From a virus (taxonomy: Duplodnaviria > Heunggongvirae > Uroviricota > Caudoviricetes), in the IMG/VR virus record IMGVR_UViG_2526164629_000012, positions 1 through 22,290 of that record: 22,290 nt of DNA; one strand, given 5' to 3'. Positions within the stretch are counted from its first letter, which is position 1, and every line of letters begins with the position of its first letter. The notes under the pieces are model-generated. The model ran no database searches and was not told the origin of the DNA. It was given only the letters and a program-made list of their open reading frames with translations. The translations under genes were made by a program, and so were the position numbers. This document shows, piece by piece, positions 12,733 through 14,374 of the stretch.

Positions 12733-12774
12733 CGCCATGATTGCCACGGATGGCAACATATTAACGGCATAATA

Positions 12775-12825
12775 TTGACTTTTTGAATAACTTTGGGGAA
12801 ACTTGACACCAATAATGGGCGTTTT
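12775..12825 (+). promoter_or_regulatory. PR' late promoter with qut site
   Basis: TTGACT (12775-12780) then TTTTGAATAACTTTGGGGAAACTTGACACCAATAATGGG resembles the lambda PR'/qut region as recalled; the -10 element is weak. Confidence 0.4.
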
Positions 12826-12995
12826 TTACATGTCATTGATGAGTCTCAATAACCTGCCGCCGAGTAGTTTTTATGCTCTGAATTGTATTTGTGTAGTAAA
12901 CATGCTGACTGCAATGTAATAGAGTTTTTTTAGCCTGTAACCTCTTGACGGCATTGAATTGCTTTTGTTATGAGTTGTAAGCCAATGTTATCATC

Positions 12996-13727
12996 TTGTA
13001 TTGGGGTGGTTATGAAGGATGGTGCGCTGCTCAGGAGTTCTTCACTTTTTATTGCCTACATGGGATGCCTTGGATGGGGGATGCTTATTTCTATGGATGG
13101 GGTACTTCTTTTTACTACGGCTTCCCATGGTGGATTGTAGGTGCAGGTGTTGATGATGTTGCCAGAAGTTTATTTTTTGCAGTTATCGTCATTGCTATAT
13201 TTCTTATCGGTTGGGGTATTGGTGTTGTATTCTTTTTCGCAGTGAAAAGAAAACATTCTATGCAAGAGCTAAATGTATTTCGCCTTTATTTTGCTGTGGA
13301 ATTATTGTTTGTGCCGGCAATTATTGAGTTTTCTATATTGAGACAGAAGATTCAGGTACCTCTTTTGCTACTGTCAGCAGCGATTGCGCTGGCGGTTACA
13401 ATTTCGATAAGATCTTATGGGCGATTTTTATCGGTATCATGCTTCTATGATAAGCCATTTATAAAAAAACATTTTTTTGAGATTGTGATGATTGCTTTTG
13501 TGGCATATTTTTGGCTTTTTTCATTTCTGACAGGATATTACAAACCACAGTTTAAGAAAGAATATGAAATGATTAATTATAATGATGGTTGGTATTATGT
13601 TCTTGCTCGTTATGATAATTGTCTGGTTTTGTCTACTTCTTTCAATGCAGGTAGTAAAAGGTTTGTCATTTATCAATCAGCACAAGATAAGAATCTTCAG
13701 GTTGATATTGTAAGGACCAGAATTTAA
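12996..13727 (+). CDS. Hypothetical multi-pass membrane protein; AT-rich cargo gene between Q/PR' and the lysis cassette; start uncertain
   Basis: 732-nt open frame in AT-rich DNA; aromatic-rich N-terminal region, several hydrophobic helices, then a C-terminal soluble region (YYKPQFKKEYEMINYNDGWYYVLARYDNCLVLSTSFNAGSKRFVIYQ); track start is TTG, in-frame ATGs at 13065 and 13074. Confidence 0.55.
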   Translation: MYWGGYEGWCAAQEFFTFYCLHGMPWMGDAYFYGWGTSFYYGFPWWIVGAGVDDVARSLFFAVIVIAIFLIGWGIGVVFFFAVKRKHSMQELNVFRLYFAVELLFVPAIIEFSILRQKIQVPLLLLSAAIALAVTISIRSYGRFLSVSCFYDKPFIKKHFFEIVMIAFVAYFWLFSFLTGYYKPQFKKEYEMINYNDGWYYVLARYDNCLVLSTSFNAGSKRFVIYQSAQDKNLQVDIVRTRI

Positions 13728-14374
13728 TTGGCTGCATAAATAATATTTTAAGTTGCAAGTTGGCTATTCGTAGGAATAGAACCTTAGGCATGCTGAATGC
13801 GTTTTCTGAACATTGTTCTATAAACTGTGTCTGCTTGCTGTTGTGATCCTGCTTTTAGTGATGGTGATGATGGATTTCACCAGCAGGATAATGTTGGTAC
13901 TGACTGATGGCGCTCTGGTCTGCGGCATTGTGGTATTGCTGTGGCCGATGATGAAAGAACAGAATGAATAATTCTTGACTTTTTTGTTTACTGTTTATTA
14001 AAAAACCAACCGCATGGTGAATCCTCCTTGGAGGGGCTAAATGATCGAGTTTTAAGGGCACGTAGCGAGTTCTGTTTGATCATTGCAGAACTTAGCGGGA
14101 GGCGCCATGCGTACATCACTAATGTTATTTCCTTCTATCATTTTCCTTGTGAGTTCTGGCTGCGCATGGCGCGGCCTTTTTTTTATGACCTGCCACTGGC
14201 AGATGGTCATCCTGTGATTTGATTCCGGTTCCGGCTTTTTAACTCTGTTCCTGTACACGGGAGAAATTCTATGTCGATTAATCGTTATGATATTGGTTAC
14301 AAGAAGTACCACGTATTGTGTTGAGATAGAAAGCCTGGTGCCAGAGGTAAATGCAGCAGCATAATAAAAAAGAG

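What the first reader, a model, noticed from the sequence alone, without database searches (positions are those of the whole stretch)
12740..13730. AT-rich membrane-protein gene between Q/PR' and the lysis cassette
The Q-to-holin interval is the slot that holds stx in Stx phages and other cargo elsewhere. Here it holds a 243-codon open frame in AT-rich DNA encoding an aromatic-rich, multi-pass membrane protein with a C-terminal soluble region. No family recognised. Its position in the late transcript means expression on induction unless it has its own promoter.
Basis: partly seen in the sequence, partly recalled or inferred. Interest (0 to 1): 0.55.

Follow-up and report, generated by a model that had tools for sequence, protein, structure and literature searches.

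The report
Frameshifted TfpB/STM1630-family membrane-protein moron
The AT-rich gene after the phage late-gene activator Q is a copy, broken by a one-base deletion, of a membrane-protein cargo gene already annotated in phage 434 and carried by about one in eight complete E. coli genomes; its family is curated but its function is unknown.

Summary
The open frame is real (12996-13727, +) and it is AT-rich (36% GC against 51% for Q). The protein is aromatic-rich (21% F/W/Y) and multi-pass. But the 243-codon frame is a by-product of a one-base deletion between 13081 and 13082. The biological gene is 238 codons and starts at ATG 13012. Once repaired, it is 100% nucleotide-identical to phage 434 gene CPT_434_68. 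None of 1207 copies in 681 complete E. coli genomes, and none of 80 IMG/VR prophage loci, carries this deletion. The window has further single-base indels in O, NinI and terminase A, so this is either prophage decay or assembly error. "No family recognised" is wrong: the family is Pfam PF27470 (TfpB), PHROG 1521 and NCBI's "STM1630 family protein". It evolves under purifying selection (dN/dS 0.06-0.19). It has five helices, with the N-terminus inside and a small periplasmic beta domain, and no fold match in PDB or BFVD. Relatives sit after three Q types, beside eltAB, sseJ, lpxR and iroBC-like genes, and among Moraxella pilin genes. A promoter-like block conserved across these contexts suggests it is a self-expressed moron rather than a lysis gene. 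Its biochemical function is unknown.

The parts
12109..12732 (+). Lambda-type antiterminator Q. This is the upstream boundary gene, not part of the cargo.
   Evidence: Pfam PF03589 Antiterm, E 4e-58. 98.6% identical to the E. coli A25 prophage Q.
12775..12810 (+). PR' late promoter with the qut site: -35 TTGACT at 12775-12780, -10 GAAACT at 12798-12803, and a start near 12810.
   Evidence: Aligns with the mEp234 element annotated 'similar to coliphage lambda PR'' and 'Qut site'. Homology with phages that lack the cassette ends near 12820.
12850..12877 (+). Degenerate remnant of the terminator that precedes the cassette in phage 434. It marks the left junction of the shared cassette.
   Evidence: The 434 hairpin folds at -13.7 kcal/mol (z -3.45). 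The window version folds at -3.9 kcal/mol, no better than shuffles. Homology between the window and 434 starts here.
12945..12974 (+). Candidate own promoter: -35 TTGACG (12945-12950), an 18-nt spacer whose 3' end is TGT (TG at 12966-12967), and -10 TATGAG (12969-12974).
   Evidence: The TTGAC(G/T)...TGnTATG block is kept upstream of five of seven divergent family members from prophage, plasmid and chromosomal contexts, although their flanks are otherwise unalignable. It was not called by the consensus scan, which instead lists TTGTTA-18-TATCAT at 12965-12994. The promoter is inferred, not mapped.
13012..13727 (+). The real gene: a TfpB/STM1630-family (PF27470) membrane-protein CDS. It is 238 codons when intact (SD GGGGTGG at 13003-13009) and is interrupted here by a 1-nt deletion.
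   Evidence: Restoring one G gives a CDS with 0 nucleotide differences from phage 434 CPT_434_68. The start and the SD are conserved across the family. dN/dS is 0.06-0.19.
13081..13082 (+). Site of the missing G (GGGGGA|TGC in the window, GGGGGAGTGC in relatives). Reading from ATG 13012 stops at 13138-13140 after 42 codons.
   Evidence: All 681 matching complete E. coli genomes differ from the window across the 71-nt query spanning this site; none matches exactly. Among 80 IMG/VR loci, none has the deletion and all 80 are intact.
12996..13727 (+). Only the part after 13081 is the native reading frame.
13813..13971 (+). DUF3927 / 'TciB-like' 52-aa membrane peptide, the linked second gene of the cassette.
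   Evidence: PF13064, E 3.4e-14. PHROG 1470. Present downstream in 79 of 80 prophage loci, but absent next to Salmonella STM1630.
13982..14187 (+). STnc100-like sRNA-like element ending in the first strong + strand intrinsic terminator after PR' (stem 14158-14176 plus a T run). It is the probable 3' end of the cassette transcript.
   Evidence: Rfam RF02076, 37.5 bits (gathering score 47), E 1.3e-6, full model length. The terminator folds at -17 kcal/mol.
14593..15739 (+). Lysis cassette (S21-type pinholin, SAR endolysin, Rz). This is the downstream boundary, not part of the cargo.
   Evidence: PF04971, E 2.6e-32. tblastn to the A25 prophage holin, lysozyme and Rz.

Best explanation
The feature is a copy of a known but uncharacterised accessory ('moron') gene of lambdoid prophages. 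It belongs to the TfpB/STM1630 family (Pfam PF27470) and in this window it is broken by a one-base deletion.

Shown:
- The intact gene has 238 codons and starts at ATG 13012.
- It evolves under purifying selection.
- It travels with a DUF3927 peptide gene as an AT-rich cassette inserted downstream of different Q antiterminators.

Inferred from sequence and model:
- The product is an inner-membrane protein with five helices and the N-terminus in the cytoplasm.
- It has a conserved aromatic/glycine motif (GWGSAYFYGWG..YYGFPWW) in helix 1 and at the start of the periplasmic loop.
- It has a roughly 55-residue beta domain in the periplasm.

Inferred, at medium confidence: the gene is transcribed from its own promoter, is H-NS-silenced like its AT-rich Salmonella relative, and is made in the lysogen. 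It would then act at the envelope as a host-interaction or fitness factor rather than in lysis. Its biochemical activity is unknown.

In this window, reading from the native start ends after 42 codons. Only an N-terminally altered product from ATG 13065/13074 or TTG 12996 could be made, so this copy is most likely non-functional, unless the deletion is an assembly error.
For: Identity and family:
- The repaired CDS has 0 nucleotide differences from phage 434 CPT_434_68.
- All 104 homologues carry PF27470, which is labelled 'TfpB'.
- PGAP names the intact protein 'STM1630 family protein'.
- PHROG 1521 matches at E 1.9e-154.
- Moraxella TfpB is homologous over its full length (24% identity, E 7e-21).

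Real gene: dN/dS is 0.06-0.19, and length and N-terminus are conserved down to 39% identity.

Frameshift. It is one of at least eight single-base indels in the window, and these also break O, NinI and terminase A.

Architecture:
- The AlphaFold2 model with 49 sequences has pLDDT 78 and pTM 0.70, with five helices and a five-strand C-terminal domain.
- K+R counts average 7.2 in the proposed cytoplasmic segments and 2.6 in the proposed periplasmic ones. 48 of 49 family members favour N-in/C-out.

Moron character:
- The gene is absent from phages with the same Q and PR'.
- GC is 36% against 51%.
- The cassette is found after lambda-type Q (46 loci), Q82-type Q (31 loci) and PF06530-type Q.
- Homologues also sit outside phages: beside eltAB/STb on ETEC plasmids, beside sseJ/steB, beside lpxR, and beside iroBC-like genes.
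- A promoter-like block is conserved upstream across contexts.

Expression of a relative: STM1630 has its own promoter, is bound by H-NS, is expressed in SPI-2-inducing medium and in macrophages, and clusters with SPI-2/PhoP-type genes.
Against: - The Salmonella phenotypes are weak or inconsistent. Hypermotility seen in a screen was not among the phenotypes reproduced with clean deletions. Deletion did not impair, and in strain 4/74 increased, replication in macrophages.
- The proposed -10 element (TATGAG) lacks the canonical final T, and no transcription start is mapped in the phage context.
- Association with virulence loci may only reflect co-residence in AT-rich horizontally acquired DNA.
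- Whether the deletion is biological cannot be decided from the sequence.
Confidence: 0.62

Rival explanations
1. The gene is intact in the real organism. On this reading the missing G, like the other single-base indels in the window, is a sequencing or assembly error, so the locus encodes the normal 238-aa protein.
For: The window has at least eight single-base indels relative to close relatives, mostly in A runs. They break genes that a viable phage needs: O at 5331, and terminase A at 18826, 18849, 19139 and 19516. NinI at 11842 is broken too. Apart from the one base, the CDS is identical to that of phage 434, so no other decay is visible.
Against: The deleted G is not inside a homopolymer (GGGGGA-G-TGC). 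Cryptic prophages do accumulate exactly such frameshifts, and the copy in E. coli A25 carries an independent one (A7 to A6) that PGAP calls a pseudogene. No reads are available.
Confidence: 0.45
2. The gene is late-transcript or PR'-leader cargo with no promoter of its own. It would be transcribed from PR', either only after Q antitermination (the Stx logic), or constitutively in this phage type because no terminator separates PR' from the gene and the 14158-14185 terminator acts as tR'.
For: The gene is co-oriented with PR' and starts about 200 nt downstream of it. The 434 version has a terminator before the cassette (-13.7 kcal/mol). The window and 2B8 versions have only a degenerate remnant (-3.9 kcal/mol), and the first strong terminator comes after DUF3927.
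Against: The same cassette keeps about 145 nt of its own upstream sequence behind different Q types. A promoter-like block is conserved upstream of homologues that have no Q or PR' at all, on a plasmid and on chromosomes. STM1630 has its own promoter.
Confidence: 0.25
3. The gene encodes a prophage superinfection-exclusion or anti-phage membrane protein that blocks entry or aborts infection by other phages, possibly together with the DUF3927 peptide.
For: It is a prophage moron encoding an inner-membrane protein with a periplasmic domain. It is tightly linked to a small membrane peptide in 79 of 80 loci. The Moraxella member lies among type IV pilin genes, and pili are common phage receptors (general knowledge).
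Against: There is no match to 5027 PADLOC models. Many members are stand-alone chromosomal or plasmid genes beside toxin or effector genes, or in no mobile context at all. The Salmonella member is co-regulated with intracellular virulence genes. DUF3927 is missing next to STM1630.
Confidence: 0.12
4. The gene is a lysis accessory, such as a holin, antiholin or lysis-timing regulator, belonging to the adjacent lysis cassette.
For: Only its position upstream of the pinholin and its membrane localisation.
Against: It is separated from the holin by 865 nt that contain another gene and a strong terminator. At 238 aa, with five helices and a beta domain, it is unlike holins. Homologues occur in non-phage loci. 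Related phages with the same lysis genes lack it.
Confidence: 0.03

Closest known systems
Phage 434 gene CPT_434_68, 'putative membrane protein' (OL657226), and phage 2B8 gp58
   Same: The same gene. Apart from the missing G, the window CDS has 0 nucleotide differences from 434 and 13 from 2B8. It has the same DUF3927 neighbour and the same position after Q.
   Different: 434 has a Q82-type Q, a functional-looking terminator before the cassette and a NanS-p esterase after it. The window has a lambda-type Q, a degenerate terminator and no esterase, and its copy is frameshifted.
Salmonella Typhimurium STM1630 (namesake of NCBI's 'STM1630 family protein')
   Same: 46% identical over the full 238 aa, with the same architecture. 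It is AT-rich and horizontally acquired.
   Different: It is chromosomal, between sseJ and steB, not in a prophage, and has no DUF3927 neighbour. Its promoter lies about 215-245 nt upstream. Only expression data (H-NS binding, induction in SPI-2 medium and macrophages) and weak phenotypes are known, and its function is unknown.
Moraxella TfpB (namesake of Pfam PF27470)
   Same: Homologous over its full length (24% identity, E 7e-21), with the same conserved N-terminal motif and C-terminal domain.
   Different: It lies among type IV pilin genes. From my own knowledge, this is the pilin inversion region of M. bovis and M. lacunata, and the function of tfpB was never established. It is not phage-borne.
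Lambdoid morons and Q-S slot cargo (lambda bor and lom; stx in Stx phages; nmpC/ompD; nanS-p)
   Same: An extra, compositionally distinct gene inserted between conserved late-region modules and absent from sibling phages. It occupies the same slot as stx and nanS-p.
   Different: The protein family is unrelated. Unlike stx, it probably has its own promoter, and in this window no terminator gates it from PR'.

Membership tests
Pfam PF27470 (TfpB) / NCBI 'STM1630 family protein' / PHROG 1521 | Significant full-length sequence similarity to family members or the family profile | tested here: met
   The 434 allele is identical to the repaired window CDS. It hits 104 proteins that all carry PF27470 (E down to 9e-158) and PHROG 1521 at E 1.9e-154. 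PGAP's name is seen on WP_001299184.1. PF27470 itself is not in the local Pfam copy, so the label comes from precomputed annotations.
Pfam PF27470 (TfpB) / NCBI 'STM1630 family protein' / PHROG 1521 | Conserved N-terminal motif (SS..AY.G.LGWGSAYFYGWG) read in frame with the rest of the protein, giving an intact product of about 238 aa | tested here: not met
   In the window the motif is split by the 1-nt deletion at 13081/13082, and the native start gives a 42-aa product. It is met in 434, in 2B8, in all 80 IMG/VR loci at this site and, with no exact match to the window's version, in 681 E. coli genomes. The window copy is a disrupted allele of the family, not an intact member.
Pfam PF27470 (TfpB) / NCBI 'STM1630 family protein' / PHROG 1521 | Five-helix membrane domain plus a small C-terminal beta domain | tested here: met
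   AlphaFold2 model with pLDDT 78, hydropathy, and positive-inside counts in 48 of 49 members.
Moron (accessory gene cassette of lambdoid phages, in the sense of Hendrix and colleagues) | Present between conserved genes in some phages and absent from close relatives | tested here: met
   mEp234, HK97 and others share Q and PR' up to about 12820 and then go on to their own tR' and holin without the cassette.
Moron (accessory gene cassette of lambdoid phages, in the sense of Hendrix and colleagues) | Base composition distinct from the surrounding phage genes | tested here: met
   36.0% GC for the gene and 38.2% for the cassette, against 50.8% (Q) and 50.5% (lysis genes).
Moron (accessory gene cassette of lambdoid phages, in the sense of Hendrix and colleagues) | Own promoter and terminator flanking the gene | tested here: inconclusive
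   A promoter-like block is conserved in five of seven divergent contexts, and there is a strong terminator at 14158-14185. No transcript ends are mapped, and the -10 element is non-canonical.
Moron (accessory gene cassette of lambdoid phages, in the sense of Hendrix and colleagues) | Expressed from the repressed prophage | not testable with these tools
   This needs RNA or protein data from a lysogen. Only the Salmonella relative has expression data.
Holin / antiholin / lysis accessory | Small protein (about 70-150 aa, 1-3 TM helices) encoded next to, and co-transcribed with, the endolysin | tested here: not met
   238 aa with five helices and a beta domain. It lies 865 nt upstream of the holin, with a gene and a terminator in between. 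No holin Pfam hit was found.
Known anti-phage defence proteins (PADLOC-DB 2.0) | Match to a defence-system profile | tested here: not met
   No hits at E up to 1 for the protein, for DUF3927 or for the neighbouring small ORFs.

The most novel reading that the evidence does not exclude
PF27470 proteins could be a conserved envelope accessory of host-adapted Gram-negative bacteria that moves between genomes as a self-expressed cassette. They sit next to surface or virulence determinants (lpxR in three different arrangements, eltAB, sseJ, iroBC-like genes, type IV pilin genes), and may functionally serve such determinants, for example by modulating outer-membrane or lipid A remodelling or surface-appendage function through the periplasmic beta domain. 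In lambda-Q-type phages such as this one, the cassette may lie inside the PR' leader. It would then be made constitutively in lysogens, with the 14158-14185 terminator acting as the Q-controlled tR'. A minor variant: a -1 ribosomal slip on the G5 run at 13076-13080 would restore a full-length protein with a single S24D change.
Probability: 0.12. Interest if true: 0.55.

Novelty: already known. Interest (0 to 1): 0.22.

Why it matters
This window's copy adds nothing new, because the gene is already annotated in a classical phage and the family is already curated.

The family itself is a real gap in knowledge:
- It is under strong purifying selection.
- It is present in about 12.5% of complete E. 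coli genomes, often twice, including O157:H7, O26, O111 and EPEC E2348/69.
- It is repeatedly found beside toxin, effector, lipid A-modifying or pilin genes.
- It has no fold or sequence analogue of known function.

A phage 434 lysogen offers a simple genetic system for testing what it does.

For the scan, the useful lesson is that this window carries many single-base indels. ORF-level oddities in it should be checked against relatives before they are interpreted.

Tried and rejected
- Local Pfam-A and NCBIfam scans of the window ORF and the intact allele gave nothing above noise. The family label came only from precomputed annotations.
- The PDB sequence profile search gave 0 hits at E up to 10.
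- The first AlphaFold2 run, with 30 close sequences, was too poor to use (pLDDT 57). The second, with 49 sequences including distant members, was usable.
- The afdb50 library was unavailable.
- The genome-contig scan returned only 5 loci. The profile of distant members had no stretch conserved enough to scan with.
- PADLOC gave no hits.
- Literature searches:
  - tciA/tciB lead only to phage P1 gene names assigned by homology.
  - 'TfpB' in searchable papers mostly means something else.
  - No paper was found on phage 434's late-region cargo or on the accession numbers.
- I rejected using the STM1630 hypermotility phenotype as functional evidence, because the follow-up with clean deletions did not list it among confirmed phenotypes.
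- I rejected the holin/antiholin reading (see the rival explanations).
- I considered DUF3927 to be an obligatory partner and rejected that, because it is absent beside STM1630 and in the ETEC plasmid and C. rodentium contexts.
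Full report
**What is at the coordinates**

The + strand carries an uninterrupted frame from 12996 to 13727: 243 codons with a TTG start. It lies between two conserved modules.
- Upstream is a lambda-type antiterminator Q (12109-12732; PF03589, E 4e-58).
- Downstream is a phage-21-type lysis cassette: pinholin at 14593-14808 (PF04971), SAR endolysin at 14808-15305, and Rz ending at 15739.

Just after Q is a lambda-like PR'/qut element. Its -35 is TTGACT at 12775-12780 and its -10 is GAAACT at 12798-12803. It aligns with the annotated PR' and Qut of phage mEp234.

The gene has 36.0% GC, against 50.8% for Q and 50.5% for the lysis genes (profile).

**The 243-codon frame is not the gene**

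I aligned the window with phage 434 and phage 2B8. Both have one more G: GGGGGAGTGC against the window's GGGGGA-TGC, between 13081 and 13082.

Family members down to 39% identity are uniformly about 238 aa. They conserve an N-terminus (M...SS..AY.G.LGWGSAYFYGWG) that in the window is read from ATG 13012 in a different frame from the long ORF. That ATG, and a GAGG-like Shine-Dalgarno sequence 3-10 nt upstream of it (GGGGTGG at 13003-13009), are conserved across divergent homologues. From ATG 13012 the window encodes 23 native residues, then 19 out-of-frame residues, then a stop at 13138-13140.

Restoring the single G gives a 238-codon CDS with zero nucleotide differences from phage 434 gene CPT_434_68.

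The deletion appears to be private to this sequence.
- All 681 complete E. coli genomes that match the 71 nt around the site (1207 places) differ from the window there, and none matches exactly.
- All 80 IMG/VR prophage loci retrieved have the intact site, and the 73 with a recognisable start all have a 238-codon ORF.

The actual situation is the reverse.

**Is the deletion real?**

The window carries other single-base indels relative to close relatives. Most are in A runs.
- Replication gene O: 5331.
- NinI phosphatase: 11842.
- Terminase A: 18826, 18849, 19139 and 19516.
- A non-coding position: 14128.

These split O, NinI and terminase A into pieces. Either the assembly is indel-prone or the prophage is decaying, and I cannot distinguish the two without reads.

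E. coli A25 carries the same prophage arrangement with an independent frameshift in this gene (A7 to A6 at nucleotide 480). PGAP annotates that copy as a frameshifted pseudogene. Disrupted alleles therefore do occur in deposited genomes.

**What the gene is**

- Phage 434's annotation calls it 'putative membrane protein'.
- PHROG 1521 (unknown function) matches at E 1.9e-154.
- PGAP names the intact protein 'STM1630 family protein'.
- All 104 homologues found carry the precomputed Pfam family PF27470, labelled 'TfpB'. This model is absent from the local Pfam copy.

The family is small. There are 72 representatives at 50% identity among 1.84 billion proteins. In the lineages sampled it is confined to host-associated Gram-negative bacteria: Enterobacteriaceae, Pasteurellaceae, Neisseria and Moraxella. 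The Moraxella protein that one source calls TfpB is homologous over its full length (24% identity, E 7e-21) and lies among type IV pilin genes.

The gene is under purifying selection. dN/dS is 0.17 against 2B8, 0.06 against E. albertii, 0.08 against another Escherichia species, and 0.13-0.19 against more distant members.

**Architecture**

An AlphaFold2 model built with 49 family sequences is reasonably confident (pLDDT 78, pTM 0.70). It shows helices at 10-36, 47-78, 89-111, 116-136 and 155-181, followed by a five-strand domain at 184-235.

Positive-inside counts across the 49 sequences average 7.2 K+R in the N-terminus, loop 2 and loop 4. They average 2.6 in loop 1, loop 3 and the juxtamembrane C-terminus. 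This favours N-in/C-out in 48 of 49 sequences. I therefore infer a periplasmic beta domain and a periplasm-facing aromatic belt (YYGFPWW).

No solved or viral predicted structure resembles the model. There is no PDB sequence hit and no defence-system hit.

**Genomic behaviour**

In E. coli prophages the gene travels with a 52-aa DUF3927 ('TciB-like') membrane peptide, present in 79 of 80 loci. That name comes only from homology to a phage P1 gene of unknown role.

The same cassette follows a lambda-type Q in 46 loci and a Q82-type Q in 31. Diverged homologues follow PF06530-type Q genes in Yersinia and in a second E. coli prophage type. Phages with the same Q and PR' but without the cassette exist.

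Diverged members also lie outside phages:
- divergent from eltAB and near STb on ETEC plasmids;
- between sseJ and steB in Salmonella, where the gene is STM1630;
- next to lpxR in Citrobacter rodentium;
- near an iroBC-like cluster and bor in other E. coli strains;
- as a plain chromosomal gene in Avibacterium.

lpxR lies within about 2.5 kb in three different arrangements. This is suggestive, but AT-rich islets tend to co-reside, so it proves nothing.

**Expression signals**

Homology between the 434 and window contexts begins about 145-160 nt upstream of the start codon, at a terminator. In 434 that terminator is good (-13.7 kcal/mol, z -3.45). In the window and 2B8 it is degenerate (-3.9 kcal/mol, no better than shuffles). 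mEp234, which lacks the cassette, has a strong tR' at the equivalent distance from PR' (-15.1 kcal/mol).

The first convincing + strand terminator after PR' in the window is at 14158-14185 (-17 kcal/mol), after DUF3927.

Within the retained upstream sequence is a block reading TTGAC(G/T)-N14-TGnTATG. In the window this is -35 at 12945-12950 and -10 at 12969-12974. The block is conserved upstream of five of seven divergent homologues from unrelated contexts, whose flanks are otherwise unalignable. I read it as the cassette's own extended -10 promoter, but that is inferred and not mapped. The consensus scan lists a different candidate, at 12965-12994.

The Salmonella relative has its own promoter, and two SNPs in its -10 element abolish expression in ST313 strains. 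It is bound by H-NS and is expressed in SPI-2-inducing medium and in macrophages. It clusters with SPI-2/PhoP-type genes in a regulator-mutant transcriptome network.

**Function**

No function is established for any family member. The evidence from Salmonella is thin.
- Transposon mutants were reported attenuated in calves and chicks, according to a citation in the paper read.
- A clean deletion had no growth defect, and in strain 4/74 it increased replication in macrophages.
- Hypermotility seen in a screen was not among the phenotypes confirmed with non-polar deletions.

My best-supported reading is as follows. The intact gene is a lysogenic-conversion moron encoding an inner-membrane protein that presents a small beta domain to the periplasm. 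It is expressed independently of the lytic programme and contributes to host-associated fitness through the envelope. It is not a lysis protein, for three reasons: its size and architecture are wrong, a gene and a terminator separate it from the holin, and homologues occur outside phages. A superinfection-exclusion role is not excluded but has no positive support.

**Verdict**

The locus is a disrupted or mis-sequenced copy of an already annotated, curated but uncharacterised gene family. As a discovery it is ordinary. The family remains a worthwhile target for experiment, and phage 434 provides an intact allele in a tractable system.

Noticed in passing
window 5331, 11842, 18826, 18849, 19139, 19516 (also 14128): Single-base indels relative to close relatives, mostly in A runs, split replication gene O, the NinI phosphatase and terminase large subunit A into several frames. 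Either the assembly is indel-prone or this is a decaying, non-viable prophage.
   Followed up: partly
window 13982-14187 (+): Full-length but sub-threshold match to the Rfam sRNA family STnc100 (37.5 bits, gathering score 47, E 1.3e-6). It ends in the strong terminator at 14158-14185. It overlaps the small 'putative membrane protein' ORF annotated in phage 434 (CPT_434_70), which may therefore be an RNA element rather than a gene.
   Followed up: partly
window 14364-14453 (-): Weak match to the EHEC sRNA Esr41 (32 bits, gathering score 102), with its own strong minus-strand terminator. It lies inside the 132-codon minus-strand ORF 14052-14450, which PGAP annotates as intact in strain A25 and as a broken pseudogene elsewhere.
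   Followed up: no
window 12811-12880, compared with L001 2465-2512 and L013 1885-1935: This phage, like 2B8, has no recognisable intrinsic terminator between PR' and the cargo cassette, whereas 434 and mEp234 have good ones. The Q-controlled terminator may be the one at 14158-14185, which would place the cargo genes inside the constitutive PR' leader transcript.
   Followed up: partly
L104-L107 (ETEC plasmids), L005 (Salmonella), L108 (C. rodentium), L109-L111 (E. coli), L112-L114 (prophage), L019-L022 (Moraxella): Diverged members of the family lie beside eltAB/STb, beside sseJ/steB, beside lpxR (three different arrangements when 434-type prophages are counted), beside iroBC-like genes plus bor, and among type IV pilin genes.
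   Followed up: partly
window 7955-9727 (-): A 590-codon minus-strand ORF in the nin region, next to low-GC DNA (about 35% GC near 10000-10400), has no Pfam or PADLOC match. It is a second, larger piece of unexplained cargo.
   Followed up: partly
window 2075-3261 (-): Two ORFs occupy the slot next to the cI repressor, where lambda has rexAB. They match the PADLOC candidate defence pair PDC-M24B (E 6e-10; DUF1828) and PDC-M24A (E 3e-4; DUF6978).
   Followed up: no
L004 4046-4788 (E. coli A25): An independent frameshift in the same gene (A7 to A6 at nucleotide 480 of the CDS), in a prophage with the same Q, cassette and holin arrangement as the window.
   Followed up: yes
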